DNA from: Candidatus Marinacidobacterales bacterium
Lineage (GTDB): Bacteria; Acidobacteriota; Vicinamibacteria; Marinacidobacterales; SMYC01
NCBI GenBank assembly: GCA_965237955.1
Contig: OZ250169.1
Span: 3,072,001-3,136,000, forward strand
Length of the DNA stretch: 64,000 nt
Direction: 5' to 3'
Part shown: positions 5,283 to 59,757 of the stretch, piece by piece
Layout: every line of letters starts with the position of its first letter
Numbering within the stretch: position 1 is the first letter of the stretch
The notes under the pieces: model-generated
What the model was told of the DNA's origin: nothing
The model's database searches: none
The model's input: only the letters and a program-made list of their open reading frames with translations
Translations under genes and position numbers: made by a program

Positions 5283-5283
5283 G

Positions 5284-42323: not shown

Positions 42324-43985
42324 TCACAGCGTTTTGACGAGCACTCGCTGTTTCTCCCAATCGTCGGGAAGCGGATGATGCAAGAGGTAGCTCGAGGTCA
42401 GCCCAACGGGCTGGCGGCCTTCGACAATGGCGCGGACGATGTCGGGAGCCAGGAAGGCATAACGGATTGCCTTGCGCACGCGGTCCGTTGGGATGGCGTT
42501 TTCGGTTGCAATCTGCTCATAGGTTTTGCCTGCTTTGATTCGGTCGAGCCAGGAGAGGGCGTTTCTGATATTGCGCAGGAGTGTGCGGTCGACGGATTTC
42601 GTGGGGTTGCCCAGAACGAGCTTGGTCTCGACGCCGCGTCGACGCAAGCGGAACGGTGCGAGGATGCGGAGTGCATCGTCGCGAATGCGTTCGGGTCCCA
42701 TAGAGAGGCAAGCAGCGAACGCATCGCGGTCGAGCAGGATGGACACAGAGCCGGGGCTGATGTCGACCCGCCGGATAAGACGGAGCAGGGGGGCTGCCGA
42801 GGCACTATCATTGTTACTACCGGAACACAGCCCGTCTAAAAAGCGACGCACCGAGGCGAGCTCTTGCATCGTCGGAGTGTGGATCAACGAGGCCGAGAAG
42901 GTCGTGGCATCCACATGCTGTCGGATGAGATGCACGACGGTCTGTTCCAGCATCGGGGCGGGCAGTCGCCAGCCGGAGAGGTCCTTTTGGCCACTGTGCT
43001 GGATGAGGCGCCGGGAGACGTAGTAGCGGAGCCGTTGCCCGTTTTTCTTTTTGGTGTGGCTCGGCGTCAGCCGGTCCCCGGTCTCGTCGAAGAGCTTGCC
43101 TGCCAGTGGGGAAGGGGCGGCACGGCCCTTCGTCGTGCGTCTCCTTGGTTTGGCAGCCCCTGCCTGCAGCTGCGTTTGGACCGCGTCCCAGAGCTCCGGA
43201 GCAATGATCGATGGATGCTGGCCCTCGTACACACGCCTCTGGTGCCGGATGCGGCCGGCGTAGAGAGGATTGGTCAGCAGGCAGTGGAGGTGTCCGCGAC
43301 GGAACGGCAGCCCGCCCGTTCGGGTTCCATCCGCGGTGAAGCGTTGCTTGGTACGCAGTCTCAGACGGTCCGCCTCGGCCTTCACCTGCCGGAGCGTTTC
43401 GTGCTTTCGGTACAGCGCATAGAGCGTCCGGACCGTTTCGGCCTCAGCCTCGTTGATGCGCAGCGTGCGCCCGTCCTTCTCATAGCCTAGCGGTACGCGG
43501 CCGCCCATCCATAGTCCCTTGCGCTTGGAGGCAGCGACCTTATCGTGGATCCGCTCGGCCGTGACCTCGCGTTCGAATTGTGCGAAGGACAGCAGCATAT
43601 GCAGCGTCAGTCGTCCCATGCTGGTCGCGGTGTTGAAGGACTGAGTCACCGAGACGAAAACCGCGCCGGCCGCCTCGAGCCGCTCGACGAGCTTCGCAAA
43701 GTCGGAGAGGGAACGGGTCAGCCGGTCGACCTTGTAGACCACAATCTGGTCGACGAGACCTGCGTCGATGTCGGCGAGCAAGCGCTGGAGGCCCGGGCGC
43801 TCCAGGGTTCCTCCCGAGAGCCCCGCGTCCTCGTAGACGGTTGGCAGCAGCACCCAGCCCTCCGCTTTCTGGCTCGCGACATACGCGGCGCAGGCTTCTC
43901 GCTGCGCATCGAGGGAGTTGAACTCCTGTTCGAGACCCTCTTCCGCACTCTTTCGCGTATAGATGGCACAGCGGATCTTCTTCAT
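42324..43985 (-). CDS. Large serine recombinase, ~553 aa
   Basis: RCAIYTRKS (catalytic Ser), DAGLSGG..RPGL, KVDRLTRS, FEREVTAER, PLGY, NPLYAG, YEGQHPSII. Confidence 0.92.
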   Translation of the reverse strand: MKKIRCAIYTRKSAEEGLEQEFNSLDAQREACAAYVASQKAEGWVLLPTVYEDAGLSGGTLERPGLQRLLADIDAGLVDQIVVYKVDRLTRSLSDFAKLVERLEAAGAVFVSVTQSFNTATSMGRLTLHMLLSFAQFEREVTAERIHDKVAASKRKGLWMGGRVPLGYEKDGRTLRINEAEAETVRTLYALYRKHETLRQVKAEADRLRLRTKQRFTADGTRTGGLPFRRGHLHCLLTNPLYAGRIRHQRRVYEGQHPSIIAPELWDAVQTQLQAGAAKPRRRTTKGRAAPSPLAGKLFDETGDRLTPSHTKKKNGQRLRYYVSRRLIQHSGQKDLSGWRLPAPMLEQTVVHLIRQHVDATTFSASLIHTPTMQELASVRRFLDGLCSGSNNDSASAAPLLRLIRRVDISPGSVSILLDRDAFAACLSMGPERIRDDALRILAPFRLRRRGVETKLVLGNPTKSVDRTLLRNIRNALSWLDRIKAGKTYEQIATENAIPTDRVRKAIRYAFLAPDIVRAIVEGRQPVGLTSSYLLHHPLPDDWEKQRVLVKTL

Positions 43986-43986
43986 G

Positions 43987-44418
43987 TTAGGCCTTGCGCT
44001 TGGGCGTGAGACCGAAAAAGCGTGGTCCTGACCAGTGGGTGCCGGTGATTCGCTTTGTGATGGCGGTGAGGGACGGATAGGTTTTGCCATCGAACCGATA
44101 GCCGTTGTCGATTACCTCGACCTGGTAGGTCCGGCCATTCCACTCGCGGACGAGATGGGTGCCGGCAGAAACGGACCCTGCGGGAGCGCCGGAGCTTGGT
44201 GTCTCGTTCGCCATGGCAGCCAGAGCGCGCCGGGTTGTGGCCGAATGCCAGCCAAGGGTCCGGCACTGGCGTTCGTACGCAAGAACGCGGCGCATGAAAA
44301 CGCGAGAGAGCGAGCTTGGAGGAGCAGCCCCAAAGGTCTGCTCCCAGACCCGCCGCAAGCTGGCGAAGTCCAAACCGTCCAGAACGACGTTCCGCCCAAC
44401 CCCTGTATCCTGCGGCAT
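43987..44418 (-). CDS. DUF2924-family protein
   Basis: As 5284-5715. Confidence 0.85.
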   Translation of the reverse strand: MPQDTGVGRNVVLDGLDFASLRRVWEQTFGAAPPSSLSRVFMRRVLAYERQCRTLGWHSATTRRALAAMANETPSSGAPAGSVSAGTHLVREWNGRTYQVEVIDNGYRFDGKTYPSLTAITKRITGTHWSGPRFFGLTPKRKA

Positions 44419-45113
44419 CACCGAACGTTCGCTCTTGTGCTCGATAAAGTCCAGTCTAATGAGGGACTTCCGGGTGCGCAGTCCGTTGCTCGTAGCTCGC
44501 CCCGCAGCCGATTTGAGCCAGCCGTGCGCACCCCCGGTGGGCCTGTCGCTCGCCACCCGCAGCCCAGGGGTCATAAGCCAGCCCTGCGGCGCGAAATACA
44601 CTCGATTCTGCGCGGATTCCAAGGGCGTCTAAGCTGCTGATTTGTGGTCTATTTCAAAAGGGCCGAGTTTTGGCACAGGACGGGGTGGCGGATAAGCGAA
44701 ACCTCCTCGGGCTTTCTCGGAAAAAGCTGGAATCATGCGCGACGCCCGAAGCTGACAAGTGGTGGGGTTGTCTGCGAGCGTTGAATGGTGCGGCCAGTCT
44801 AGATGCCTTAACGCTCCAAGTTCATAAGACTCCGGTGGCGTCGTCGGGTCGAACGGCACGAAGCAGCCAAGCGATGGCAAGTCCTAACCACGCAATCAAC
44901 GCTGGATCGACTTTTTGCGGAGCACAGGTTACCCAGCTTCTTCAGAGTATCCTGCGCGGTGTTTCTCGCTTTGATTCGCTCTCCTTCCGCGCCGTCGCGT
45001 ACGTCGCGTGTTGGGTTCCCGCGACAAGAGTCACCCGCACGGATCCCGTCACGACCACTTCTTCGCGAGTGAAACGGAGTGCGCCGTCTCCGGATTTCCA
45101 GTCGAGAACGCGG

Positions 45114-45569
45114 CTAGTTGGACTCGATCGGAGCGCTCAGGACGTTGGTCCCCCACATCAGCTTGATCTCGCCGCTGTTGCCGGAGCCGGACAGCTCGAT
45201 CGTGAACTGTTCCGTCGCGTCTCCGTCCTTCTTCCACGTGAGCTGGGCTTCGCCCACGTCGCGGCTGGCGTCGTGGGACGTGCCCCACTGCCCGGTCTGG
45301 GAGTTGAACACTAGGTGCCACGTGTCTTCGCTCACTCGTTTCGTGAACAAGCTGTACGCGCCCTTCGCGATCGCAGTGCCGGAAACGGTGATGTCGGCCC
45401 CGGTCGTGAACGTGGTGGATTGATCCGCGCCTGTGCGCCAAACGGTACCCACGGGGGCTTGGCCGAGCATGTCGCGTCCCCGGAGACTCGGCCGACCGTA
45501 GTCCACGGAAACCTCGCTTCCGCCTATGGTCGCTTTGGATGTGCCGCGGGGAGACTGAGCCCACGCCAC
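45114..45569 (-). CDS. DUF2911-family protein, 5' end clipped
   Basis: SPR, VDYGRP..RGR, VWRTGA, YSLF motifs; signal peptide region interrupted by an rve-IS end at ~45575. Confidence 0.75.
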   Translation of the reverse strand: MAWAQSPRGTSKATIGGSEVSVDYGRPSLRGRDMLGQAPVGTVWRTGADQSTTFTTGADITVSGTAIAKGAYSLFTKRVSEDTWHLVFNSQTGQWGTSHDASRDVGEAQLTWKKDGDATEQFTIELSGSGNSGEIKLMWGTNVLSAPIESN

Positions 45570-45845
45570 GACGCCCAGCCAGCTAGAACGAGCAGTAGGA
45601 ATTGCACGTGGTACGTCATCATGGATCTGAAGATAACACCCTCGGGCCAGACGATTGTAAAGCCTACGGCCCTTGGTCCGGTCGCAAACACAGACACTAA
45701 GCTGCTGATTTATGGTCTATTTCAAAAGGGCCGAGTTTTGGCACAGGACGGGGAATTGAGATAAACGAATAGGGGAATGTCAGAGCAGCACGTGAGGAGT
45801 TCCATTCGAGCACACGAATGGTTTTCTGCCTCTCCGTTCAAAAGA

Positions 45846-45943
45846 GTTGTGCTCCGCAAAAAGTCGATCCGGCGTTGATTCCGCGGGTTAGACCTACCAT
45901 AGTCGGCTGCTTCTGGCCGGTTTTCTTTTTTGCGGATCACAAC
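45846..45943. mobile_element. ~96-bp MITE copy
   Basis: Reverse copy of 17971-18066. Confidence 0.8.
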
Positions 45944-45992
45944 AGCCAGCGGCCAACGTGGTCAATACCGGAAAATCAGGTGTTGCCTAGCC

Positions 45993-47408
45993 CTAGCTGA
46001 AGTCCACCCCGAAGAACAGCACCGCGATGATGATCGCCGCCACGGCCAGCGGCGACACGAACTGAATGAAGAACCGCCACGCTCCATAGTTGAACCACCT
46101 GGGTTCTGAGCCATCCACGAGCTCCCGCTCGGTGTACTTGCGCGTCAGGAACCAGCCCGCCGCGATCGTGATCGCAAATCCCCCGGTCGGGAGCATCCAG
46201 TTCGACACGAAGTGGTCGACCATGCCGAACCAGCTCGCCTTGCCGCCGAAGAGCATCTGGCCGAGCGCGCCGCCGAGTTGGAGCTCGGTGATCGCGCCGA
46301 CACCACCGAACGACAACGCGGCGAGGACCGTGAAGGCAAACACCGCACCACCACACAGCAGCGTCGCCGTGGCCCGCGGCATGTGGTGTTCGTCGATCAC
46401 GTAGGCAGCGACCACTTCCAGTAGCGACATCGTCGAGGTGAGCGCCGCGAGGGCCACCAACACGTAGAAGAGTGGCCCCAGGAATGCCCCGAACGGGACC
46501 TCGGTGAAGAACAGCTGCGGCAGCGAGATGAAGAGCATCCCCACAGTGCCCGTGCCGCTGACCTGCTCATCCATACCCGGCACGCTGAAGATCACCGAGA
46601 ACATGATCACCGTGGCCACGAGTGCGATCAGCGTATCGAGCACGACGATGATCGCCGAGGCTTTCACGATCGACTGATGCTTTGCGATGTACGAGCCGTA
46701 CGTCACCATCGCGCCCATGCCGAGCGAGAGCGTGAAGAACGCGTGGCCGAGCGCCTCGAGGACGCTCCCCCCATCCAACTCGCCGAAGCGCGGCAGGAAG
46801 ATGAAGCGGAGCGCCTCACCGGCCCCGGCCATCTCCAAGGCGGAGACAAGCAGCAAGACGAGGATCCCGAAGAGAATCGGCAGAAAGACACGCGCGATGC
46901 GCTCGATGCCCTTTTGGACGCCGAAGTAGACGACCGAGACCGTGGCGATACTGAACCCGAGAGACAAGCCAAGCTGCAGGCCGCCATTGGCCGCCTGCGC
47001 ACCGAACAGCTCGCCCATCGAGGCGCCCGCCGGGAATCCACCGACCGACCAGCCCGCGGACTTGGCGAAGTAGAAGAGCGACCAGCCCGCAATCACCGTG
47101 TAGTAGCTGAGCAGCAGAAAGCCGCAGAGCACGCCCCAGAGGCCAACGATGCCCCACGCCGGCCCGATGGCCTGCTTGAGCGCCCCGACCACGCTCTTCT
47201 GCGTCGCTCGCCCGATCAGCAGTTCGGCCATCATGATGGGCAGGCCCACGGCGGCGATGCACACGAGGTACACGAGGACGAAGGCCCCGCCGTTGTTCTC
47301 CCACGTGACGAACGGGAACTTCCACAGGTTGCCGAGGCCGATCGCGCTCCCGGTCGCGGCGAGAATTAAGCCGGTGTTCGAACTCCAATGGCCGCGCGGC
47401 TCTGACAT
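45993..47408 (-). CDS. Sodium-dependent transporter, NSS/SNF family
   Basis: GSAIGLGNLWKFP, NGGAF, GIER, AFFTLSLGMG..TYGSY; many transmembrane segments. Confidence 0.93.
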   Translation of the reverse strand: MSEPRGHWSSNTGLILAATGSAIGLGNLWKFPFVTWENNGGAFVLVYLVCIAAVGLPIMMAELLIGRATQKSVVGALKQAIGPAWGIVGLWGVLCGFLLLSYYTVIAGWSLFYFAKSAGWSVGGFPAGASMGELFGAQAANGGLQLGLSLGFSIATVSVVYFGVQKGIERIARVFLPILFGILVLLLVSALEMAGAGEALRFIFLPRFGELDGGSVLEALGHAFFTLSLGMGAMVTYGSYIAKHQSIVKASAIIVVLDTLIALVATVIMFSVIFSVPGMDEQVSGTGTVGMLFISLPQLFFTEVPFGAFLGPLFYVLVALAALTSTMSLLEVVAAYVIDEHHMPRATATLLCGGAVFAFTVLAALSFGGVGAITELQLGGALGQMLFGGKASWFGMVDHFVSNWMLPTGGFAITIAAGWFLTRKYTERELVDGSEPRWFNYGAWRFFIQFVSPLAVAAIIIAVLFFGVDFS

Positions 47409-47687
47409 GTGTCGTTCTCCGATCGATGGCGTGGTCTACGGGAGGCGATGCGGCCCCAATAGATCCCGGCCCGTGAAGTCTCGCCCAGTAGACGTTACGT
47501 AAATACTCTAAAGGATTTCTGTCGGGCCAGCGAGCGGCACGGCAGTATCGCGCGTCAGCACGCCACGGAGAGAGGTCGGAAGCCAGCCCTGCGGCGCGAA
47601 ATACCCTCGATTCTGCGCGGATTCCAAGGGCGTCTAAGCAGCTGATTTGTGGTCTATTTCAAAAGGGCTGAGTTTTGGCACAGGACG

Positions 47688-49005
47688 GGGTGTACCTCTC
47701 GGCGGTAGAGGATGCGTTCGGATCTGATATCGACTACGTAATGTTGATCAAAAACTACGGAGACGCGCCGGAAGGTCAGAGGCGGTACAGCCCGGCCGTC
47801 TGCACCGGAGCGACGCGGATACGCGTCACTGGCGACCCCGACGATGACCACATCTCCACGAGCTACGTCGAGCGCCAGAACCTGACGATGCGGATGTCGA
47901 TGCGGCGTTACACGCGGCTGACGAACGCCTTCTCGAAGAAGCTGGCGAACCTGGAGCATCACGTCGCGCTCTACTTCGTGCACTACAACTTCTGCCGGGT
48001 CCACAAGACGTTGAGAACGTCGCCGGCGATGGCAGCCAAAATCACGGACACGCTTCACGACATGGAGTGGATCGTCGGCCTCATCGATGCGCGGGCACCG
48101 AAGCCAGGCCCACGCGGACCCTACCGAAAGCGCCAGCAGGCAGCATAACCCAGGGCTTGGGACTGTTGGTGCTTGATCTGCCAACCTCGTTCAGCTTAGA
48201 ATCCCACTAGCTCGGTTTCCCCGAGTCCGTTGATTCTTTCGGCTTAGTCTCCATAGAATCAGCCGCCCCGCTAGCCGGCCGCTAGCGGGGCGGCGCACTT
48301 TCGCCGGCCTCGATGGAGCCGAAACATGGAGACTAAGGATGATAATTCCGTCTTTACCCCCGATCCCTGATCCGTTCGACGACCCACGACTCAAAAAAGA
48401 ACTTCTCCAAATGGCGAAGGCGTTCGAAACCCACGAGAAGAAGTTCGCTGCGCTTAAGCCACAAGTGGAGCGTCAGTTCCGTCATATGTCGGCAGAGTTA
48501 GCGCGAAGCTGGCCTGCTCTGAGGCAGTCGCGTGTCAAACTTGAAGGAAAACCAAGCATGAAGATTCCATCTATACCCGTCGCTCCATTTGAGCTGAAGC
48601 TCCCTAGAAGCGATCAGCTAGAAACCATCATCCGTAGACTTGACGAAATTGATTCTACTCTGGGAAAGGTCGTAATTTTGATGCAGGAAGGGTTGAATCG
48701 GAAGGTTCAGACCGAGACGAGCCCAACGTCGGAAGGACATACTCAACCACCCTCAAAGCCGAAAACTGTTCGTTAAATGTCGTTCCACTGTTTTCCAAAA
48801 GCTCGATGATAGACTGGGCCAGGGCGAGCGAAATGGCGCGTTTTCCGACTAGATGAGAACCGGGAAGGTCCGACATGAAACCCCACTTGTGAAGGCCTGG
48901 AAGGAAATTATAGCATGAAGCCCAACTGGTAGCGTTCAGAGCGGCGAGGCTTACGCCTTCCAACTTGTGAGCTCCATTTTCTTAATTTCAAACTGAGACA
49001 CTACC
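47688..49005 (+). mobile_element. Second IS1-family element, 5'-truncated, with passenger DNA
   Basis: Transposase C-terminus 47688-48148 (TSYVERQNLTMRM..RRYTRLTNAFSKK, YNFCR, SPAMAA); candidate right IR TTCAAACTGAGACACTACC at 48987-49005. Confidence 0.7.
48339..48776 (+). CDS. Hypothetical protein (passenger)
   Basis: 145-aa ORF with a GGAG RBS in lower-GC DNA; no recognised motif. Confidence 0.45.
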   Translation: MIIPSLPPIPDPFDDPRLKKELLQMAKAFETHEKKFAALKPQVERQFRHMSAELARSWPALRQSRVKLEGKPSMKIPSIPVAPFELKLPRSDQLETIIRRLDEIDSTLGKVVILMQEGLNRKVQTETSPTSEGHTQPPSKPKTVR

Positions 49006-49264
49006 CCATCAAGTGTTGCTTCAGTTGGCCTGCCTGTGCCGGCGAACGCGTCGTGTCCAAAAATACAAACGAACTCAAGATCGGCACGCCGGGACGTTTC
49101 GGAATAGATTGATGACAGCTAGTGGACCCACTGGTAGTTGATGCGGGCACGAATCAAAGCTGGGGATTATTACAGCGAATTGGAATCCTCGTTCAAGGGG
49201 AAACCGTAGTATCCTGGGAGCGTCTTTCAATACAGAAGGGGGCAACGCCATTTGGAGGAGAACT

Positions 49265-49516
49265 ATGGCAAAAGCGCGAGTGTTGACGCGGTTGGAACTA
49301 GCCGAGCATTTGGGTGTCGATAAACAGATGGTAACGAAATGGGAGCGGTCTGGGATGCCGGTCCACACCAGAGGGCGCGGCGTGGCGTCTCAATTCCGTC
49401 TGGGGGAGGTCCGGGCGTGGCTAAGGGTGCGGGAAGCGAAGGCCAAAGCGGCGGAGAAGGCGAAGGTGCGGGAAGCCAAAGCGTCAGAGAAGGCGAAGAA
49501 GACAGCGAAGGGTTAG
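49265..49516 (+). CDS. Phage terminase-small-subunit (Nu1)-like / excisionase-type wHTH, probably truncated
   Basis: RBS GGAGG; LTRLELAEHLGV....VTKWERSGMP.....G....F....V..W; abuts a DUF2924 fragment at ~49515. Confidence 0.55.
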   Translation: MAKARVLTRLELAEHLGVDKQMVTKWERSGMPVHTRGRGVASQFRLGEVRAWLRVREAKAKAAEKAKVREAKASEKAKKTAKG

Positions 49517-50404
49517 CCCCAAAGGTTTGCTCCCAGACCCGCCGTAAGCTGGCGAAGTCCAAACCGTCCAAAACGACGTTCCGGCCAATCCCTGTATCCT
49601 GCGGCATCACCGAACGTTCGCTCTTGTGCTCGATAAAGTCCAGTCTAATGAAGGACTTCCGGGTGCGAAGTTCACTGCCCGCAGCTCGCCCCGCAGCCGA
49701 TTTGAGCCAGCCGTGCGCACCCCCGGTGGGCCTGTCGCTCGCCACCCGCAGCCCAGGGGTCGGAAGCCAGCCCTGCGGCGCGAAATACCCTCGATTCTGC
49801 GCGGATTCCAAGAGCGTCTAAGCTGCTGATTTGTGGTCTATTTCAAAAGGGCCGAGTTTTGGCACAGGACGGGGAGCGGCGCACCTCGCTCACGGCCGTA
49901 CGAAGTCATGGCACGCTGGTACGATGTCGACGGCAAGCCGTCGCTGTTCATCTTCGGTCCCGCCGCTCAGACCCCGTTTGGCCTAATCTCCGATCCCCAG
50001 AAGGGCAAGGTAGGGGCCATCCTGCGGGAGGTATGTCGGAATGGACGATAGACGATGTTTCGTTCAGTTCTCGCACCCCGGGGGCGTTGTTGCACCGCTC
50101 TTGGCTGAGAGCGAAATCTGCCTATCGTGGTGGCCGGGGTCGGAGAGCAGATGATGCAAGAGGTAGCTTGAGGTCAGCCCAACAGGCTGGCGGCCGTCGA
50201 CAATGGCACGGACGATGTCGGGTGCCAGGAAAGCATAGCGGATTGCCTCGATATTCGCTCTCGACTAGGTGGTCATCTGCATGGTGACGACCCGCCCGCC
50301 CAAGACAATTGTAGAGCCTACGGCCCTTGGCCCAGTCGCAAACACAGACACTAAGCTGTTGATTTATCAGCTATTTCAAAAGGGCTGAGTTTTGGCACAG
50401 GACG

Positions 50405-50662
50405 CCATCCGGACAACCAGGCCCGTTTCAATCGCCATGTCTGAATAGACCCGTTGACCGCCAGGCTTACCGGTCTTGTCGGCCTTCCAGTTCGCGATTG
50501 CCTCCTCGTCAAACCAGACTGTCAAATCGCCCCGGCGGCGCAGCCCTTCGTTGTATTCCGCCCAGTTGCGAACGTGGTACTTCTTCTGCTTCGCGTGCTT
50601 GTACTGGCAGCGCTTGGGATACTTCATGCTCGAACATACCTCGGCCACCACCATAGGCGGAT
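50405..50662 (-). mobile_element. IS903-group 5' fragment interrupted by IS21 (left IR resumes 53604-53641)
   Basis: Identical to the start of 6729-7812 in reverse orientation. Confidence 0.88.
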
Positions 50663-50680
50663 TGCGTATTCCGGGGCATC

Positions 50681-50820: not shown

Positions 50821-50882
50821 CTCATCGATAGCACGTTTCAAGGCAACTCTAGGTCGTACCCGGAAGGAGGACGATCTAGGAA

Positions 50883-52439
50883 ATGGCAGCTAAGAGGTTA
50901 TCGATGAGAAAAATACGAGAGGTTCTAAGGTTAAAGTACGAGCTGGGTTTTACTCACCGCATGATCGCAAAGGCACTTCGCGTGGCGGTTGGAACGGTGA
51001 GTGAGTACCTGGCCAAGGCGAAGAAGGGTGGTCTGAGCTGGCCGCTCCCGGAGGAGCTGAGCGAAGGGGAGCTGGAGGCAGGGCTGTTTCCGCCGCCGGG
51101 CTCGTCTGGCGCACGGCCGGGTCTGGACTATGCCCACATCCACGAGGAGCTGAGGCGTCACCGAGAGCTGACGTTGCTGCAGCTGTGGGTGGAGTACGCG
51201 GAGAATAAGCCGGGAGCGTACGGCTACAGCCGTTATTGCGAGCTGTACGGTCAGTGGAAGAAGAAGCTGAACCCGACGATGCGTCAACGGCATCGAGCAG
51301 GCGAGAAGACATTCGTCTATTTTTCGGGGAAGAAGCCTCACATCGTCGATCCGAAAACGGGAGAGCTCGTCGAAATGGAGCTGTTCGTCGGGACGTTGGG
51401 CGCGAGCAGTTACACCTACGTCGAAGCGACACTGAACCAGTCGCTGGAATCGTGGGCGAAGGCCCATAAGGGGATGTCGGATTACTTCGGTGGCAGTACG
51501 GAGATCTGGGTTCCGGACAACTTGAAGAGCGGCGTGGATTTGGTGGACCGTTACGAGCCAGGGATCAACCGGACGTACGAAGAGCTGGCGACGCATTACG
51601 GTGCGGTTGTGGTCCCGGCTCGGGTGTTCAAGCCGAAAGACAAAGCGAAGGTGGAGTCGGCAGTGCAGGTGGCGCAGCGCTGGATCCTGGCGGTGCTTCG
51701 TCATCGCACGTTCTTCAGCCTGGCGGAACTGAACGAAGCCATCTGGGAGAAGTTAGAGGTCCTGAATGCGCGTCCGATGCAGAAGCTCGGTGTGAGTCGG
51801 CGGGAGTTGTACGAAAGGCTAGACCGGCCCGTACTGAAACCGCTACCGCAGGAGAGCTACGAGTTATCGACGTGGAAGCGGTGCAGAGTGAACATCGACT
51901 ACCACGTGGAGGTGGAGAACAACTTGTACAGCGTTCCCTATCAGCTCATTCACGAGAAAGTCGAGGCACGGGTGACGGCCTCGGTGGTGGAGGTCCTGTT
52001 CAAGGGAAAGCGCGTCGCGTCGCATCCCCGCAAGAAAGGAAAGGGGCACTACTCCACGAACCCGGAGCATATGCCACGTTCGCATCGGGAGCACCTGGAG
52101 TGGACGCCGTCGCGGCTGCTCCACTGGGCGGAGCAGTCAGGTCGCGCCACGGGAAGGCTGGTTGCGGGGATTCTAGAGAGTCGGCCTCACCCGGAGCAGG
52201 GATTTCGCTCTTGCCTGGGAGTCATGCGACTAGGCAGCCGCTGGGGCAGTGAGCGTCTCGAGGCCGCTTGCGCACGAGCGGAAGCTTTGAGCTCTTACAG
52301 CTATCGCACGGTGAAAAACATTCTCTCGGCTGGTCTGGATCGTGTGGTGCTCGAATCGGACGCCGAAGCGAAACCGCGAGAGGAGCACGAGAACATCCGA
52401 GGCGCGGATCACTACGAAGGAGGAGAGTCCCGATGCTGA
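50883..52439 (+). CDS. istA: IS21 transposase IstA
   Basis: HTH, YGYSRYC, HRAGEK, VPDNLKSGV, PKDKAKVE, DYHV, YSVP; first catalytic Asp appears to be Tyr. Confidence 0.92.
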   Translation: MAAKRLSMRKIREVLRLKYELGFTHRMIAKALRVAVGTVSEYLAKAKKGGLSWPLPEELSEGELEAGLFPPPGSSGARPGLDYAHIHEELRRHRELTLLQLWVEYAENKPGAYGYSRYCELYGQWKKKLNPTMRQRHRAGEKTFVYFSGKKPHIVDPKTGELVEMELFVGTLGASSYTYVEATLNQSLESWAKAHKGMSDYFGGSTEIWVPDNLKSGVDLVDRYEPGINRTYEELATHYGAVVVPARVFKPKDKAKVESAVQVAQRWILAVLRHRTFFSLAELNEAIWEKLEVLNARPMQKLGVSRRELYERLDRPVLKPLPQESYELSTWKRCRVNIDYHVEVENNLYSVPYQLIHEKVEARVTASVVEVLFKGKRVASHPRKKGKGHYSTNPEHMPRSHREHLEWTPSRLLHWAEQSGRATGRLVAGILESRPHPEQGFRSCLGVMRLGSRWGSERLEAACARAEALSSYSYRTVKNILSAGLDRVVLESDAEAKPREEHENIRGADHYEGGESRC

Positions 52440-53191
52440 CACCCGAAACGATAGAAAAGATGAACGCCATGAAGTTGTTCGGCTTGGTGTCCGCGTTCGA
52501 AACCCAGTTGAGCTCGAGCGAATACAAGGAGCTGAGCTTCGAGGAACGTGTGGGACTCCTGGTCGATGCCGAGTGGACCGCCCGCGAACAGCGTAAGCTT
52601 TCTCGACGACTGCGAGCGGCAAAGCTCCGCTATCCGGCATGTTTGGAGAACGTGAACTTCCAAGCGCCTCGAGGCTTAAACCGCGAACAGATCTTGAGCC
52701 TGGGCAACTGCCGCTTTGTCGGTGAGCGCCATAACCTGCTCATCACCGGCCCGACGGGGATTGGCAAATCGTTCTTGGCTTGCGCCTTCGTGGAGCGGGC
52801 CTGTCGTCGCGGCTTCACCGGATGCTACGTGCGAGCACCGCGCTTGCTCCACGAGCTCGCGGTCGCTCGTGGTGATGGTTCCTACGCCCGGCTTTTGACG
52901 AAACTCGCCAAGCTGGACTTACTGGCTATCGATGATTGGCTGCTTCACCCGCTGAAAGAATCGGAGAGACGGGATCTAATGGAGGTCATCGAAGACCGCG
53001 CCGAGCGTGGCTCCACACTCATCGCGACCCAGATTCCGCTCAAGCAGTGGCACGAAGCGATTGGCGACCCAAACCAGGCAGACGCTATCTGCGATCGCAT
53101 TCTCCACAGCGCGCACCGCATCACTCTCAAAGGAGCTTCTCTGAGAAAGACCAAGGCTGCGCCAAAGGCATTTGACAACGCCGATGCATGA
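52433..53191 (+). CDS. istB: IS21 helper ATPase IstB
   Basis: GPTGIGKS, LLAIDDW, ADAICDRI; overlaps the istA stop. Confidence 0.92.
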   Translation: MLTPETIEKMNAMKLFGLVSAFETQLSSSEYKELSFEERVGLLVDAEWTAREQRKLSRRLRAAKLRYPACLENVNFQAPRGLNREQILSLGNCRFVGERHNLLITGPTGIGKSFLACAFVERACRRGFTGCYVRAPRLLHELAVARGDGSYARLLTKLAKLDLLAIDDWLLHPLKESERRDLMEVIEDRAERGSTLIATQIPLKQWHEAIGDPNQADAICDRILHSAHRITLKGASLRKTKAAPKAFDNADA

Positions 53192-53940
53192 GCGAGCGAG
53201 GGACCACAGCGTCGATGCGATAAAAACGGGTGAAACCGCCAAACCCGGGGCCAGACGATGCGGCGCCAAAACGACGCGCGAGAATGCCTCAGGAAGCGTC
53301 TTCTCGAGCCAGGCCATACCCCAGCAACCCCCCGAAACCAGCCCCACATCGCCCGGGGTTCGGCCGCGGCAGGTCGCTGCCTACGGGAGCGGGAAGGTCG
53401 CTTCGCGTCTTTCCTTACGCCCGCTCCCTCCGGCACCGACCTGCCGCCCCTTGCTACACAACACGCAGGTAAGATAGGTTCACGTTTTCAATCAGTGGGA
53501 AGGAGGTCACCCAACACTTCATCGCTTCGATGAGCGTTCGGCTTCACCGGATTCGCTGTTCAGCTTGCTCTGGATTCGGCGTTCACGATGGCTGGAATAC
53601 GCACCGGATTTCGCTCTCAGCCAGAGCGGTGCAACAACGCCGGCTTATCGGGACGTTTTTGCGCTTAATCGTGCAGACAATGAGAAGACGCTCTACGCCT
53701 AGATCGCGCCTGAGGAGAAGGCGAATAGCGGAATTCGAATTAGCCAAACCTCGAATTCATCCAGCGGAGTTTTACGGAGGAAACGAAGATGACTCCGCAG
53801 ACGGTCCAGTACAAGGAGCTATCCGAGTCTGGAAACCATGACAGGGAATTTGGGCCAGTTTAAGTCTGATTGGTGGAGGCCAGTGTCGGAGAGCAGCTTG
53901 CTGCTAACCGAGGCCATTCACGAAGTGGGCGCTGGCAGGC

Positions 53941-55603
53941 TCACAGCGTTTTGACGAGCACTCGCTGTTTCTCCCAATCGTCGGGAAGCGGATGATGCAA
54001 GAGGTAGCTCGAGGTCAGCCCAACGGGCTGGCGGCCTTCGACAATGGCGCGGACGATGTCGGGAGCCAGGAAGGCATAACGGATTGCCTTGCGCACGCGG
54101 TCCGTTGGGATGGCGTTTTCGGTGGCAATCTGCTCATAGGTTTTGCCTGCTTTGATTCGGTCGAGCCAGGAGAGGGCGTTTCTGATATTGCGCAGGAGTG
54201 TGCGGTCGACGGATTTCGTGGGGTTGCCCAGAACGAGCTTGGTCTCGACGCCGCGTCGACGCAAGCGGAACGGTGCGAGGATGCGGAGTGCATCCTCGCG
54301 AATGCGGTCAGGTCCCATAGACAGGCAATCAGCGAACGCATTGCGGTCGAGCAGGATGGACACAGAGCCGGGGCTGATATCGACCTGCCGGATAAGACGG
54401 AGCAGGGGGGCTGCCGAGGCACTATCATCATTAGTATCGGAACACAGCCCGTCTAAAAAGCGACGCACCGAGGCGAGCTCTTGCATCGTCGGAGTGTGGA
54501 TCAACGAGGCCGAGAAGGTCGTGACATCCACATGCTGTCGGATGAGATGCACGACGGTCTGTTCCAGCATCGGGGCCGGGCAGTCGCCAGCCGGAGAGGT
54601 CCTTTTGACCACTGTGCTGGATGAGGCGCCGGGAGACGTAGTAGCGGAGCCGTTGCCCGTTTTTCTTTTTGGTGTGGCTCGGCGTCAGCCGGTCCCCGGT
54701 CTCGTCGAAGAGCTTGCTTGCCAGTGGGGAGGGGGCTGCACGGCCCTTCGTCGTGCGTCTCCTTGGTTTGGCAGCCCCTGCCTGCAGCTGTGTTTGGACC
54801 GCGTCCCAGAGCTCCGGAGCAATGATCGATGGATGCTGGCCCTCGTAGACACACCTCTGGTGCCGGATGCGGCCGGCGTAGAGAGGATTGGTCAGCAGGC
54901 AGTGGAGGTGTCCGCGACGGAACGGCAGCCCGCCCGTTCGGGTTCCATCCGCGGTGAAGCGTTGCTTGGTACGCAGTCTCAGACGGTCCGCCTCGGCCTT
55001 CACCTGCCGGAGCGTTTCGTGCTTTCGGTACAGCGCATAGAGCGTCCGGACCGTTTCGGCCTCAGCCTCGTTGATGCGCAGCGTGCGCCCGTCCTTCTCA
55101 TAGCCTAGCGGTACGCGGCCGCCCATCCATAGTCCCTTGCGCTTGGAGGCAGCGACCTTATCGCGGATCCGCTCGGCCGTGACCTCGCGTTCGAATTGTG
55201 CGAAGGACAGCAGCATATGCAGCGTCAGTCGTCCCATGCTGGTCGCGGTGTTGAAGGACTGAGTCACCGAGACGAAAACCGCGCCGGCCGCCTCGAGCCG
55301 CTCGACGAGCTTTGCAAAGTCGGAGAGGGAACGGGTCAGCCGGTCGACCTTGTAGACCACAATCTGCTCGACGAGACCTGCGTCGATGTCGGCGAGCAAG
55401 CGCTGCAGGCCCGGGCGCTCCAGGGTTCCTCCCGAGAGCCCCGCGTCCTCGTAGACGGTTGGCAGCAGCACCCAGCCCTCCGCTTTCTGGCTCGTGACAT
55501 ACGCGGCGCAGGCTTCTCGCTGCGCATCGAGGGAGTTGAACTCCTGTTCGAGACCCTCTTCCGCACTCTTTCGCGTATAGATGGCACAGCGGATCTTCTT
55601 CAT
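53941..55603 (-). pseudogene. Large serine recombinase, +1 frameshift at ~54576
   Basis: GGGGCCGGGC versus GGGGCGGGC in the intact copies. Confidence 0.88.
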
Positions 55604-55604
55604 G

Positions 55605-56036
55605 TTAGGCCTTGCGCTTGGGCGTGAGACCGAAAAAGCGTGGTCCAGACCAGTGGGTGCCGGTGATTCGCTTTGCGATGGTAGTGAGGGACGGATAGGT
55701 TTTGCCATCGAACCGATAGCCGTTGTCGATTACCTCGACCTGGTAGGTCCGGCCATTCCACTCGCGGACGAGATGGGTGCCGGCAGAAACGGACCCTGCG
55801 AGAGCGCCGGGGCTTGGTGTCTCGTTCGCCATGGCAGCCAGAGCGCGCCGGGTTGCGGCCGAAAGCCCGCCATGGGTCCGGCACTGGCGTTCGTGCAAGA
55901 GAACGCGGCGCAGGAAAACACGCGAGAGCGAGCTTGGAGGAGCAGCCCCAAAGGTCTGCTCCCAGACCCGCCGTAAGCTGGCGAAGTCCAAACCGTCCAA
56001 AACGACGTTCCGGCCAACCCCTGTATCCTGCGGCAT
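55605..56036 (-). CDS. DUF2924-family protein
   Basis: As 5284-5715. Confidence 0.85.
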   Translation of the reverse strand: MPQDTGVGRNVVLDGLDFASLRRVWEQTFGAAPPSSLSRVFLRRVLLHERQCRTHGGLSAATRRALAAMANETPSPGALAGSVSAGTHLVREWNGRTYQVEVIDNGYRFDGKTYPSLTTIAKRITGTHWSGPRFFGLTPKRKA

Positions 56037-57491
56037 CACCGAACGTTCGCTCTTGTGCTCGATAAAGTCCAGTCTAATGAGGGACTTCCGGGTGCGCAGT
56101 TCACTGCCCGTAGCTCGCCCCGCAGCCGATTTGAGCCAGCCGTGCGCACCCCCGGTGGGCCTGTCGCTCGCCACCCGCAGCTCTGGGGTCGGAAGCCAGC
56201 CCTGCGGCGCGAAATACCCTCGATTTTGCGCGGATTCCAAGGGCGTCTAAGCTGCTGATTTGTGGTCTATTTCAAAAGAGCCGAGTTTTGGCACAGGACG
56301 GGGTAGCCGAAGCACGGCCGACCAGTTGACCTGACCCCACGGTTAGTACCACGTTGTATCTCAGTAATTCGGCGCCGTATCCCATGGAAAAGCATGGACC
56401 ATTTGTTGCGCCGTCCACTCGGCAGAAGGATGTTCGGTGACATCGAGATACGGCGACGGTCGTGGCGAAGGACGATGAAGACGGACAGAACTCTGAAGGT
56501 TGCGGTCGGCAAAGTGAAAAAGTCGAGCGACACCAAGTCTTTTTGGCCCGGTCGCAAACCCAAACACAAAGCTACTGATTTATGGTCTATTTCAAAGGGG
56601 CCGAGTTTTGGCACAGGACGGGGTGGCGGATGGTGCAGGTTGGAGCTATCCGGTCTCGGCAAAAGGCGGTCCAGCTTTTGGCGGAAATCCTCAACCAGAA
56701 AAGCAAGTGGAAATTCAGGAGGTTTCGAGTTTCGCGCATTTCTTGACTTTTTTGACGCGTACACAGGTTTTGCGAGAAGGCTGTTTTACGCCCTCTCGGG
56801 TTTCAACCATGATGCCAATTTCGTTCCATCCTATTCCCCTACAGTGATTTAACGGCCTCCGTCACGTGCTGGTCCCCGCACGCATTATCGACGGGTGGTC
56901 GTTCGAGCCGGAATTTTAATTGGCTTTAATCAGATTTTCTATACGGCAATTTCAACCTCCTGGACGCCTGAAAGAAGGCCGTGTCGTGAACCCTCCGGCG
57001 CCACCGCCGACCGTTACTCATTGTTATAAAAAGCTTTACGTCTCATCAGCGAATATTCGTCGACGGGAACATCTTTCCAGCTATCGCAGTCGGGAGGCTT
57101 GAGTGGGGGCGAGTGGAGCTTCCGGTTCTTGGCTGGAAACGATCAGAAACAGAGCAAAACAGGTCCTTAGCGTGCAATTTGGGGCGATTTTGGGGCTTAT
57201 CGTGTCGTTTTTGCACTTAATCGCGCAGACAATGAGAAGACGCTCAACGCCTAGATCGCGCCTGAGGAGAAGGCAAATGGCGGAATTCGAATTGGCCAAA
57301 CCTCGAATTCATCCAGCGGAGTTTTATGGAGGAAACGAAGATGACTCCGCAGACGGTCCAGTACAAGGAGCTATCCGAGTCTGGAAACCATGACAGGGAA
57401 TTTGGGCCAGTTTGAGGCTGATTGGTGGAGGCCAGTGTCGGAGAGCAGCTTGCTGCTAACCGAGCCGATTCACGGAGTGGGCGCTGGAGGC

Positions 57492-59153
57492 TCACAGCGT
57501 TTTGACGAGCACTCGCTGTTTCTCCCAATCGTCGGGAAGCGGATGATGCAAGAGGTAGCTCGAGGTCAGCCCAACGGGCTGGCGGCCTTCGACAATGGCG
57601 CGGACGATGTCAGGAGCCAGGAAGGCATAACGGATTGCCTTGCGCACGCGGTCCGTTGGGATGGCGTCTTCGGTGGCAATCTCCTCATAGGTTTTGCCTG
57701 CTTTGATTCGGTCGAGCCAGGAGCGGGCGTTTCTGATATTGCGCAGGAGTGTGCGGTCGACGGATTTCGTGGGGTTGCCCAGAACGAGCTTGGTCTCGAC
57801 GCCGCGTCGGCGCAAGCGGAACGGTGCGAGGATGCGGAGTGCATCCTCGCGAATGCGGTCAGGTCCCATAGAGAGGCAAGCAGCGAACGCATTGCGGTCG
57901 AGCAGGATGGACACAGAGCCAGGGCTGATGTCGACCCGCCGGATAAGACGGAGCAGGGGGGCTGCCGAGGCACTATCATCATTACTGCCGGAACACAGCC
58001 CGTCTAAAAAGCGACGCACCGAGGCGAGCTCTTGCATCGTCGGAGTGTGGATCAACGAGGCCGAGAAGGTCGTGGCATCCACATGCTGTCGGATGAGATG
58101 CACGGCGGTCTGTTCCAGCATCGGGGCGGGCAGTCGCCAGCCGGAGAGGTCCTTTTGGCCACTGTGCTGGATGAGGCGCCGGGAGACGTAGTAGCGGAGC
58201 CGTTGCCCGTTTTTCTTTTTGGTGTGGCTCGGCGTCAGCCGGTCCCCGGTCTCGTCGAAGAGCTTGCCTGCCAGTGGGGAGGGGGCTGCACGGCCCTTCG
58301 TCGTGCGTCTCCTTGGTTTGGCAGCCCCTGCCTGCAGCTGCGTTTGGACCGCGTCCCAGAGCTCCGGAGCAATGATCGATGGATGCTGGCCCTCGTAGAC
58401 ACGCCTCTGGTGCCGGATGCGGCCGGCGTAGAGAGGATTGGTCAGCAGGCAGTGGAGGTGTCCGCGACGGAACGGCAGCCCGCCCGTTCGGGTTCCATCC
58501 GCGGTGAAGCGTTGCTTGGTACGCAGTCTCAGACGGTCCGCCTCGGCCTTCACCTGCCGGAGCGTTTCGTGCTTTCGGTACAGCGCATAGAGCGTCCGGA
58601 CCGTTTCGGCCTCAGCCTCGTTGATGCGCAGCGTGCGCCCGTCCTTCTCATAGCCGAGCGGTACGCGGCCGCCCATCCATAGTCCCTTGCGCTTGGAGGC
58701 AGCGACCTTATCGCGGATCCGCTCGGCCGTGACCTCCCGCTCGAATTGTGCGAAGGACAGCAGCATATGCAGCGTCAGTCGTCCCATGCTGGTCGCGGTG
58801 TTGAAGGACTGAGTCACCGAGACGAAAACCGCGCCGGCAGCCTCGAGCCGCTCGACGAGCTTTGCAAAGTCGGAGAGGGAACGGGTCAGCCGGTCGACCT
58901 TGTAGACCACAATCTGCTCGACGAGACCTGCGTCGATGTCGGCGAGCAAGCGCTGCAGGCCCGGGCGCTCCAGGGTTCCTCCCGAGAGCCCCGCGTCCTC
59001 GTAGACGGTTGGCAGCAGCACCCAGCCCTCCGCTTTCTGGCTCGCGACATACGCGGCGCAGGCTTCTCGCTGCGCATCGAGGGAGTTGAACTCCTGTTCG
59101 AGACCCTCTTCCGCACTCTTTCGCGTATAGATGGCACAGCGGATCTTCTTCAT
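57492..59153 (-). CDS. Large serine recombinase, intact copy
   Basis: Near-identical to 42324-43985. Confidence 0.92.
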   Translation of the reverse strand: MKKIRCAIYTRKSAEEGLEQEFNSLDAQREACAAYVASQKAEGWVLLPTVYEDAGLSGGTLERPGLQRLLADIDAGLVEQIVVYKVDRLTRSLSDFAKLVERLEAAGAVFVSVTQSFNTATSMGRLTLHMLLSFAQFEREVTAERIRDKVAASKRKGLWMGGRVPLGYEKDGRTLRINEAEAETVRTLYALYRKHETLRQVKAEADRLRLRTKQRFTADGTRTGGLPFRRGHLHCLLTNPLYAGRIRHQRRVYEGQHPSIIAPELWDAVQTQLQAGAAKPRRRTTKGRAAPSPLAGKLFDETGDRLTPSHTKKKNGQRLRYYVSRRLIQHSGQKDLSGWRLPAPMLEQTAVHLIRQHVDATTFSASLIHTPTMQELASVRRFLDGLCSGSNDDSASAAPLLRLIRRVDISPGSVSILLDRNAFAACLSMGPDRIREDALRILAPFRLRRRGVETKLVLGNPTKSVDRTLLRNIRNARSWLDRIKAGKTYEEIATEDAIPTDRVRKAIRYAFLAPDIVRAIVEGRQPVGLTSSYLLHHPLPDDWEKQRVLVKTL

Positions 59154-59154
59154 G

Positions 59155-59586
59155 TTAGGCCTTGCGCTTGGGCGTGAGACCGAAAAAGCGTGGTCCAGAC
59201 CAGTGGGTGCTGGTGATTCGCTTTGCGATGGTAGTGAGGGACGGATAGGTTTTGCCATCGAACCGATAGCCGTTGTCGATTACCTCGACCTGGTAGGTCC
59301 GGCCATTCCACTCGCGGACGAGATGGGTGCCGGCAGAAACGGACCCTGCGAGAGCGCCGGAGCTTGGTGTCTCGTTCGCCATGGCAGCCAGAGCGCGCCG
59401 GGTTGCGGCCGAAAGCCCGCCATGGGTCCGGCACTGGCGTTCGTGCAAGAGAACGCGGCGCAGGAAAACACGCGAGAGCGAGCTTGGAGGAGCAGCCCCA
59501 AAGGTCTGCTCCCAGACCCGCCGTAAGCTGGCGAAGTCCAAACCGTCCAAAACGACGTTCCGGCCAACCCCTGTATCCTGCGGCAT
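59155..59586 (-). CDS. DUF2924-family protein
   Basis: As 5284-5715. Confidence 0.85.
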   Translation of the reverse strand: MPQDTGVGRNVVLDGLDFASLRRVWEQTFGAAPPSSLSRVFLRRVLLHERQCRTHGGLSAATRRALAAMANETPSSGALAGSVSAGTHLVREWNGRTYQVEVIDNGYRFDGKTYPSLTTIAKRITSTHWSGPRFFGLTPKRKA

Positions 59587-59757
59587 CACCGAACGTTCGC
59601 TCTTGTGCTCGATAAAGTCCAGTCTAATGAGGGGCTTCCGGGTGCGCAGTCCGCTGCCCGCAGCTCGCCCCGCAGCCCAAGGGTCGGCGGATTCCAAGGG
59701 CGTCTAAGCTGCTGATTTGTGGTCTATTTCAAGAGGGCCGAGTTTTGGCACAGGACG

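What the first reader, a model, noticed from the sequence alone, without database searches (positions are those of the whole stretch)
42324..59757. DUF2924 + large serine recombinase module amplified four times, capped by the 54-bp IS end
Copies at ~4460-5843 (deleted; upstream replaced by IS21), 42324-44682 (intact), 53941-56300 (frameshift) and 57492-59757 (intact), plus upstream fragments at 1-177, 47575-47687 and 49515-49871. Wherever the upstream region survives it is fused to the 54-bp end, and homology stops exactly at GGACG. All are on the minus strand and the last two are head-to-tail. Several hundred bp of downstream non-coding DNA is also shared (41525-42323 vs 56622-57491). Large serine recombinases are usually single-copy integrases; here the module behaves like a transposon, either carried by the rve end or self-mobile.
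Basis: partly seen in the sequence, partly recalled or inferred. Interest (0 to 1): 0.7.

Follow-up and report, generated by a model that had tools for sequence, protein, structure and literature searches.

The report
Integrase-stacked mega-island at tRNA-Ser
The repeated recombinase gene pair is the integration module of DNA units that lie by the dozen, facing the same way, behind a serine tRNA gene in this genome and occur in several relatives; the recombinase likely stacked them there, and insertion-sequence ends likely attach new cargo such as anti-phage genes.

Summary
Observation confirmed and much larger than the window: 22 whole-gene LSR copies (16 intact) in the genome, and the same LSR at 93-98% identity in many copies in 9 of 40 relatives from two families. 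The 54-bp cap is the terminal inverted repeat of a 1,428-bp IS481-like element, but the module does not look like a simple passenger: none of 99 informative IS-end pairs has matching flanks. The shared 'non-coding DNA' holds the att site (core CC). The genome has an attL at tRNA-Ser(TGA), a synteny-matched attR, 35 intact P-P' junctions in two strand blocks, and a 31,953-bp unit inserted at CC between two genes adjacent in 5 of 5 relatives. Best reading: units integrated by their own LSR and stacked into a ~0.85-Mb array, later broken by IS rearrangements; IS ends likely join the cargo. Against: a linkage test was inconclusive, the IS is also strand-biased, and the window's island has no identified attL/attR. 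DUF2924 looks like a DNA-binding SAP+RAMA protein; an RDF role is untested. The scan noted tRNA-Ser DUF2924/LSR tandem islands before, on other DNA.

The parts
44629..44682 (-). Outer 54 bp of the terminal inverted repeat of IS-A (1,428-bp rve/IS481-like element), capping module copy 2
43987..44418 (-). DUF2924 gene, 143 aa; predicted SAP/LEM-like plus RAMA-like DNA-binding protein; stop is 1 nt before the LSR start
42324..43985 (-). Large serine recombinase, 553 aa, intact
41532..41560 (-). P arm of the att site (LSR1 lineage)
41530..41531 (-). CC crossover dinucleotide of an intact P-P' (attP-like) junction
41223..41529 (-). P' arm; begins GCCA, which restores the tRNA 3' end at attL; about 490 bp long and ending in an IS-B end in 11 of 35 junctions, truncated here
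59704..59757 (-). IS-A end capping copy 4
59155..59586 (-). DUF2924, copy 4
57492..59153 (-). LSR, copy 4, intact
56621..56658 (-). P arm (LSR2 lineage), CC core at 56628-56629 and 7 nt of P'; the rest of P' is cut off by an IS-A end
56567..56620 (-). IS-A end joined 8 nt beyond the att core, a recurrent hot spot (8 att sites in the genome)
53642..56300 (-). Copy 3: IS-A cap 56247-56300, DUF2924 55605-56036, LSR 53941-55603 with a 1-bp insertion near 54577; downstream arm truncated, no att site
4466..5846 (-). Copy 1: DUF2924 5284-5715 and an internally deleted LSR; upstream replaced by an IS21 piece
1..177 (-). Upstream fragment of the module with a cut IS-A end
47571..47687 (-). Upstream fragment with IS-A end
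49515..49871 (-). Upstream fragment (5' part of DUF2924) with IS-A end
50139..50248 (-). Small LSR 3' fragment
772..2119 (+). IS-B, the related rve element whose end type closes the P' arm elsewhere in the genome

Best explanation
The DUF2924-LSR pair plus its att site is the integration module of cargo-carrying DNA units that the recombinase likely inserts at the CC of CCGCCA at tRNA 3' ends (mainly tRNA-Ser TGA) and then likely into the resident junctions, giving a same-orientation stack, while an IS481-like transposase likely attaches new cargo to the module's IS-capped ends. SHOWN in sequence: attL at tRNA-Ser(TGA); attR whose flank is the syntenic neighbour; 24 intact plus 1 IS-broken junction assignable to that array; a precise 31,953-bp unit with the order attL-P'-cargo-IS end-DUF2924-LSR-P-attR; IS caps with unrelated outer flanks. 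INFERRED: that the array (about 0.85 Mb, 26 units) was one block before an inversion; that circles form by IS-mediated deletion or LSR excision; that the LSR accepts attP x attL/attR or junction x junction pairs; that LSR-less units (17 of 35 junctions have non-LSR P-arm types) move in trans; that DUF2924 is a DNA-binding accessory or directionality factor; the route between cells (none found). The window's own copies are likely a displaced piece of such a stack, which is not shown.
For: attL: tRNA-Ser(TGA) at G000 126836-126921 runs directly into the P' arm. The same holds in G008, G013, G015, G021, G033 and G018, and tRNA-Ser joins at window 41532 in 2 contigs of public run X16. Further attL-type sites at Ser(CGA) x2, Ser(GCT), Asp(GTC), one uncalled tRNA-like end and two non-tRNA sites all cross at CC. 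attR at 2014196 is P-CC-GCCA-unique; serS (before attL) and the Memo gene (after attR) are adjacent and convergent in 9 of 20 relatives holding both. Unit 2369651-2401604 separates a D12 methylase and a DUF255 gene that are adjacent in 5 of 5 relatives. Its first 7,914 bp are 99.85% identical to the array unit starting at the core at 305140, yet it ends in a different P-arm lineage. Polarity: 35 intact junctions form 3 runs (0 of 20,000 random-strand draws), G018 24 sites 2 runs, G008 20 sites 4 runs (p=0.002). Five P-arm lineages share one P' pool. LSR pN/pS is 0.27 over 16 intact copies. IS ends: 42 of 45 DUF2924 5' ends have the exact IS end 155-265 bp upstream; 0 of 99 informative facing end pairs have contiguous flanks and 0 of 27 full-length IS copies have a duplication of 3 bp or more.
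Against: The linkage test is inconclusive: P-side segments are linked (rho 0.43-0.64) and not linked across the core, but P'-internal control segments are unlinked too. The predicted pairing of P' at a unit's start with P at its end was not seen (rho -0.16). IS-A transposase genes are also strand-biased (5+/22- in the main array; 28 runs of 82, p=0.001), so polarity alone is not decisive. G015's sites are not significantly polar (10 runs of 27, p=0.085). Only 2 attL and 3 attR-like sites exist in G000, and none bounds the window's island (2.82-3.21 Mb) or the 7.8-8.1 Mb island. Only 37% of the main array is single-copy DNA. No VirB4, MOBP relaxase or TrwC was found, so the transfer route is unexplained. 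One of the half-sites fetched (L031+) is joined at an IS end, not at CC.
Confidence: 0.7

Rival explanations
1. The module is a 3.6-kb non-autonomous transposon (IS-A end, DUF2924, LSR, intact attP, IS-B end) copied by the rve transposases. The LSR made only the few attL/attR insertions, and the dozens of P-P' sites are passively carried, unrecombined attP.
For: IS-B end about 490 bp past the core in 11 of 35 junctions. IS-A genes show their own strand bias. Several islands lack attL/attR. The linkage tests did not favour exchange at the core.
Against: Only 1 copy has exact IS ends on both sides, 1 more degenerate. No IS-bounded unit has contiguous flanks (0 of 99). 17 of 35 intact junctions have P arms of non-LSR types yet the same polarity. 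Intact junctions are far more polar (3 runs of 35) than IS-A genes (28 of 82) or all LSR pieces (17 of 46). The duplicated 7.9-kb cargo starts exactly at the CC core.
Confidence: 0.2
2. The arrays are inflated or joined by long-read metagenome assembly across near-identical repeats (chimeric islands).
For: G000 contamination is 6.2%. Modules are 96-99.9% identical. Single-copy cargo is over 99% identical between G000 and G025, a different family. No public contig spans the whole module.
Against: Copies have different flanks and differ from each other. Nine other assemblies show the same expansion. The attL junction appears in independent contigs. attL, attR and synteny agree.
Confidence: 0.05
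3. One integrated element was amplified by tandem duplication and homologous recombination between repeats, then diversified by IS activity; no repeated site-specific integration.
For: Tandem duplication also yields same-orientation P-P' junctions. The P' arms look scrambled by recombination. 63% of the main array is multi-copy in the genome.
Against: Among 49 att sites only one pair shares more than 564 bp on the P' side and two pairs share sequence beyond the module on the P side. Five non-homologous P-arm lineages occur. Separate attL sites exist at several tRNAs.
Confidence: 0.05

Closest known systems
Integration module of Acidithiobacillus phage AcaML1 (Gp4 DUF2924 + Gp3 recombinase) and Wolbachia phage WO large serine recombinase + DUF2924
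   Same: Same gene pair: AcaML1 Gp4 is DUF2924 directly upstream of Gp3, 49% identical over residues 5-355. WO integrase is 33% identical; DUF2924 lies next to the WO recombinase (PMC11376236, passage).
   Different: Those are single prophage modules. Here there are dozens of near-identical copies, capped by an IS end, at tRNA 3' ends. No phage gene was recognised among the multi-copy ORF clusters, read by eye from N-terminal sequence only; no terminase or capsid search was run.
Staphylococcal and enterococcal cassette chromosomes (SCC/ECC, CcrAB/C)
   Same: An LSR is the only conserved gene, cargo is variable, attL/attR are about 50 bp, and IS elements give alternative mobility (PMC6222049, passages).
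   Different: The target is a tRNA end, not rlmH. Ccr profiles score far below cut-off (131 vs 900 bits). ECC genomes had fewer than five att hits each; this genome has 49.
Tandem accretion of ICE/IME/CIME at tRNA 3' ends
   Same: Successive site-specific integrations leave chimeric att junctions and decayed units (PMC5704250, passages).
   Different: That review assigns gene-end targeting to tyrosine recombinases and gene-internal sites to serine recombinases. No relaxase (MOBP, TrwC) or VirB4 was found here. One integrase lineage accounts for about 26 units.
Tycheposons of Prochlorococcus
   Same: Cargo-carrying elements at tRNAs including Ser(TGA), without conjugation genes, growing islands by successive integration (10.1101/2020.12.28.424599, passages).
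   Different: 474 of 501 tycheposons use tyrosine recombinases, with 1-2 elements per genome making 3.6% of island DNA. Here a serine recombinase acts, junctions are attP-like, and IS ends border the cargo.
IS481/IS3-like rve insertion sequences (IS-A, IS-B)
   Same: rve_3 + HTH_32 transposase, long terminal inverted repeats, MITE derivatives.
   Different: Below the IS481 cut-off (102 vs 224 bits). No target duplication and no matching flanks. Target bias is R(C/G)N|GG(G/A)T and asymmetric.

Membership tests
Large serine integrase | N-terminal resolvase-type catalytic domain with the serine nucleophile | tested here: met
   PF00239 128.5 bits; R11-K12-S13 invariant in 89 homologues
Large serine integrase | Recombinase DNA-binding domain | tested here: met
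   PF07508 45.7 bits; model matches solved integrases at E 4e-16
Large serine integrase | Zinc-ribbon domain with long coiled coil | tested here: inconclusive
   No PF13408 hit for the window protein, though AcaML1 Gp3 hits it; the model has a beta domain with short helices and an extra helical C-terminal domain, pTM 0.35
Large serine integrase | attP x attB giving attL and attR with a 2-bp crossover and dyad arms | tested here: met
   CC core at attL/attR in G000 and relatives; 7 of 8 dyad matches at positions 7-14 from the core. Sequence evidence only
Large serine integrase | Directionality controlled by an RDF | not tested
SCC/ECC cassette chromosome | CcrA/B/C recombinase | tested here: not met
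   131, 74 and 70 bits vs cut-offs 900, 700 and 900
SCC/ECC cassette chromosome | Insertion at rlmH | tested here: not met
   Insertions are at tRNA CCGCCA ends and a few intergenic CC sites
ICE/IME | Relaxase and/or type IV secretion system | tested here: inconclusive
   0 matches for TIGR00929, PF03432 and PF08751 in G000 (98% complete); other relaxase families were not searched
ICE/IME/CIME tandem arrays | Chimeric att junctions between attL and attR at one target | tested here: met
   25 junctions between attL 126916 and attR 2014196, if one inversion is allowed
Tycheposon | tRNA-targeting tyrosine integrase | tested here: not met
   The recombinase is a serine recombinase
Tycheposon | Replication module (primase/helicase) | not tested
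   Array ORFs were clustered but not scanned for these families
Non-autonomous/composite DDE transposon | IS inverted repeats at both ends | tested here: inconclusive
   IS-A upstream in 42 of 45; IS-B downstream in 11 of 35; both exact in 1 copy
Non-autonomous/composite DDE transposon | Target duplication or flanks from one empty site | tested here: not met
   0 of 99 informative pairs; 67 pairs uninformative
IS481 family (for IS-A) | Transposase above the NF033577 cut-off | tested here: not met
   102 vs 224 bits
IS481 family (for IS-A) | TGT...ACA termini and direct repeats (feature recalled, from no call) | tested here: not met
   TGT lies 5 nt inside the conserved end; 0 of 27 full copies have a repeat of 3 bp or more
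Prophage (WO/AcaML1 type) | Head, tail and packaging genes | not tested
   No family search for terminase or capsid was run

The most novel reading that the evidence does not exclude
A two-enzyme, integron-like gene-capture platform: an IS481-like transposase that makes only one-sided joins cuts 5-140 kb cargo blocks onto att arms, and a promiscuous tRNA-targeting serine integrase excises, shuffles and stacks them at any P-P' junction. It builds megabase arrays of defence and other accessory genes that are exchanged between bacterial families found in sponge microbiomes, without recognisable conjugation genes.
Probability: 0.35. Interest if true: 0.85.

Novelty: new variant of a known kind. 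Interest (0 to 1): 0.68.

Why it matters
It offers a concrete mechanism for how these bacteria gain up to about 2 Mb of accessory DNA (IS-end clusters span 1.95 Mb of 8.13 Mb) and share it across families (single-copy cargo 98-99.6% identical where core genes are 66-72%). It points to a serine integrase that targets conserved tRNA ends without breaking them and appears to reload the same locus dozens of times, which would be useful for iterative large-cargo genome engineering. It supplies natural attP, attB, attL and attR sets for testing how LSR directionality can be relaxed, and a candidate function for DUF2924. The IS with no matching flanks in 99 tests suggests an unstudied transposition mode.

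Tried and rejected
Simple insertion of an IS-bounded module: no matching flanks or duplications. The 54-bp end as an LSR att arm: it is the IR at both ends of a transposase-coding IS and unlike the att arms. A symmetric IS target with a 3-bp spacer: seen at one palindromic site, but the empty-site consensus has no mirror half. Secondary attB inside a gene: no long ORF spans the empty site; it is intergenic. Linkage across the core as proof of exchange: the control failed. Replichore bias as the sole cause of polarity: not separable, because of the inferred inversion. Expression: RNA-library contigs cover the module, but contigs cannot show transcription, so this is not claimed. DUF2924 fold: no Foldseek match at E<=0.001; best structural Z 6.2, middling. 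An attR closing the G018, G008, G015 or G013 arrays was sought in 11 chosen 15-20 kb stretches and not found. Literature searches found no paper on this system: DUF2924 (3 Wolbachia papers), (0; 0); the library lacks most subscription papers and no supplements were read.
Full report
1. Observation. The window is G000:C1:3,072,001-3,136,000 of an 8.13-Mb single-contig genome. Self-BLAST and translation confirm the four copies and three upstream fragments at the stated places. The likely genes are DUF2924 43987-44418 (143 aa) and LSR 42324-43985 (553 aa), 1 nt apart. Genome-wide, tblastn gives 65 LSR and 52 DUF2924 alignments. Twenty-two copies span the whole LSR gene and 16 are intact, 96.0-99.9% identical, with pN/pS 0.27. 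The same LSR occurs at 93-98% identity in many copies in 9 of 40 relatives, in two families of the order. The IS-cap/module junction was found in exactly those 9 and not in the other 31 searched, many of which are fragmented. The LSR's 90% cluster has 1,926 members; the nearest named relatives are 58-63% identical alphaproteobacterial proteins. Public runs holding the stretch come from 13 studies; the three holders with a readable label are sponge metagenomes (one a small share), the rest are coded.

2. The 54-bp cap. It occurs 367 times with <=10 mismatches. It is the outer part of a ~100-bp inverted repeat at both ends of a 1,428-bp element with a 356-aa rve transposase (IS-A), which also has 317- and 134-bp MITEs. 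IS-A is IS481-like but below the family cut-off. The window's own rve element (IS-B, 772-2119) is 54% identical in protein and has different ends. Of 45 DUF2924 5' ends, 42 have the exact IS-A end 155-265 bp upstream, 2 appear to have a degenerate one, and 1 is the IS21-replaced window copy. An IS-B end lies about 490 bp past the att core in 11 of 35 junctions, but only one copy has exact ends on both sides. Of 166 facing end pairs under 4.5 kb, 99 were informative and none had flanks that are contiguous in an empty allele, including 16 full ISs and 20 MITEs; 0 of 27 full ISs show a duplication of 3 bp or more. Empty targets read R(C/G)N|GG(G/A)T with no mirror half. So these ends mark joins between unrelated DNAs, not simple insertions. 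One-sided or replicative intramolecular transposition is my inference.

3. The shared non-coding DNA is the att site. About 800 bp past the LSR stop lies a site with two arms around CC. tRNA-Ser(TGA) at 126,836-126,921 runs straight into the P' arm, whose first bases GCCA restore the tRNA end: attL. The census is 35 intact P-P' junctions, 9 cut by an IS, 3 attR-like and 2 attL. I fetched 20 loci chosen mostly for half-site matches in relatives. Twelve sites are attL-type, all crossing at CC: 5 at Ser(TGA), 2 at Ser(CGA), 1 at Ser(GCT), 1 at Asp(GTC), 1 at an uncalled tRNA-like end and 2 elsewhere. Five are attR-type. The rest are one partial P arm, one IS-cut site, one intact junction and one half-site joined at an IS end rather than CC. 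G018 also has attL at Ser(TGA); in G025 no P' arm was found behind that tRNA. Two contigs of run X16 join tRNA-Ser sequence at window 41532.

4. One array. The attR at 2,014,196 reads P-CC-GCCA-unique. serS lies before attL and a Memo gene shortly after attR. They are adjacent and convergent in 9 of 20 relatives that hold both, on different contigs in 7, and far apart in 4, all 4 being module-rich genomes. attL and attR are thus likely the ends of one insertion, now split by an inversion. GC skew fits: 11 of 14 50-kb windows at 1.30-2.00 Mb are positive although they lie left of dnaA at 2.352 Mb. Allowing that inversion, 24 intact and 1 IS-cut junction lie in one orientation between attL and attR: about 26 units and 0.85 Mb. 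Spacing in the main part is 5-143 kb, median 32 kb. All 35 intact junctions form 3 runs (0 of 20,000 random draws). G018 has 24 listed sites in 2 runs over 1.1 Mb, G008 20 in 4 runs (p=0.002), G015 27 in 10 runs (p=0.085); these lists were capped at 40 matches per genome.

5. A complete unit. attL 2,369,651 and attR 2,401,604 bound 31,953 bp between a D12 methylase gene and a DUF255 gene that are 0.5-0.6 kb apart in 5 of 5 relatives tested. The order is attL, P' arm, cargo, IS-A end, DUF2924, LSR (frameshifted), P arm, attR. Its first 7,914 bp, which look like a type I R-M cluster from the ORF starts (no family scan), are 99.85% identical to the array unit that starts at the core at 305,140 and stop at an IS-A end. 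So the same P'-cargo block was placed at a new attB and has a different P-arm partner. Five P-arm lineages (LSR1 10, LSR2 8, repeat-rich 10, T3 6, T5 1) share one P' pool; the last three carry no LSR directly upstream and would move in trans.

6. Results against. The linkage test is inconclusive: P-side segments correlate (rho 0.43-0.64) and nothing correlates across the core, but P'-internal segments do not correlate either, and the unit-wise prediction failed (rho -0.16). IS-A genes are strand-biased too. The window's island (2.82-3.21 Mb) has 4 intact and 4 IS-cut att sites but no attL or attR, so how these particular copies arrived is not shown. Only 37% of the main array is single-copy. 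No VirB4, MOBP relaxase or TrwC was found. G000 has 6.2% contamination and raw long reads were not examined.

7. Cargo and exchange. Window cargo includes a type II R-M pair, IetAS, a type I restriction subunit, a HEPN-RES protein and an SbcCD-like pair. G025, of another family, shares single-copy stretches with G000 at 98-99.6% while core genes are 66-72% identical, and holds a 92%-identical copy of G000's tRNA-Ser(GCT)-Memo region inside its array. This suggests recent exchange, though chimeric assembly is not excluded.

8. The proteins. The LSR model matches solved large serine integrases (best E 4e-16) and has an extra helical C-terminal domain. DUF2924 (pLDDT 86) has a SAP/LEM-like N-terminal and a RAMA-like C-terminal part (Z 6.2 to the CcrM C-terminus, 6.0 to MPND; middling). 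[quoted passage not shown] Known RDFs are predicted to bind the second DNA-binding domain (PMC12286644, passages, which does not mention DUF2924). Whether DUF2924 binds the LSR is open.

9. Comparison. It works like tandem accretion at tRNA ends (PMC5704250, passages), like tycheposon island growth (10.1101/2020.12.28.424599, passages) and like cassette chromosomes (PMC6222049, passages), but fails the membership tests for Ccr and for tyrosine-integrase tycheposons. The gene pair is that of phage AcaML1 and phage WO. PMC10299305 and the other listed papers were seen as search listings only. Nine searches found no paper on this system; supplements were not read. Earlier AI notes of this scan describe tRNA-Ser DUF2924/LSR tandem islands in other genomes. 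I had reached that reading before seeing them, and they are not independent evidence. What this finding adds is the scale, the near-clonal spread across families, the precise secondary unit with copied cargo, and the coupling to IS ends that never show matching flanks.

10. Verdict. Real; a new variant of a known kind. LSR-driven stacking with IS-recruited cargo 0.7; passive IS-borne attP module 0.2; assembly artefact 0.05; tandem duplication 0.05. Interest 0.68.

Noticed in passing
G000 genome-wide; e.g. L052 (G000:448590-450017); window IS-A ends at 303-356, 9889-9942, 20547-20600, 29462-29515, 30218-30271, 31861-31914, 37016-37069, 45697-45750, 50351-50404, 59930-59983: IS-A/IS-B form an IS481-like group with about 650 ends, MITEs, no target duplication and no matching flanks in 99 informative pairs; the transposition mode deserves its own study.
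   Followed up: partly
window 56620 and 7 other att sites; also window 44683: IS-A ends join 8 nt past the att core at 8 att sites, a hot spot that destroys P' arms; copy 2's own outer flank carries the same 9-bp motif.
   Followed up: partly
G000 upstream of att sites 354045, 466749, 810762, 1078751, 2014196 and others: LSR-less P arms carry 4-6 short direct repeats at about 22-bp spacing, iteron-like or protein-docking sites.
   Followed up: no
window about 42150-42230 (minus strand): A second, degenerate P-arm-like sequence lies about 100-170 bp after the LSR stop; some LSR-less junctions look like its left part fused to the main site.
   Followed up: no
L040 (G025:6236000-6255999): A 1.4-kb tRNA-Ser(GCT)+Memo segment 92% identical to G000 core DNA sits inside the array of a genome from another family.
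   Followed up: partly
L046, L045 (G009): Distant LSR homologues (53% protein identity for the L046 copy) lie beside tRNA-Ser(GGA) and near tRNA-Ser(GCT) in a relative without the expansion or exact IS-A ends in these loci.
   Followed up: partly
L049 (G018:7498567 and 7500087): Two divergent attL-type half-sites 1.5 kb apart, one behind a tRNA-Ser-like end not called by ARAGORN, head the 1-Mb polar array.
   Followed up: no
window 9968-12471, 31953-35595, 37468-40913, 2608-3783, 21003-27908, 29368-30156: Defence-type cargo: XhoI-type R-M, IetAS, type I HsdR + YgjP, HEPN-RES, an SbcCD-like four-gene block with two unassigned ORFs, and a NOV_C protein.
   Followed up: partly
window 15814-17427 and 61920-63533: A 1.6-kb duplicated block (99.4%) with an Opacity-family outer-membrane gene next to IS-B pieces.
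   Followed up: no
G000 about 0.9-2.09 Mb: A large inversion is suggested by GC skew and by the split attL/attR.
   Followed up: partly
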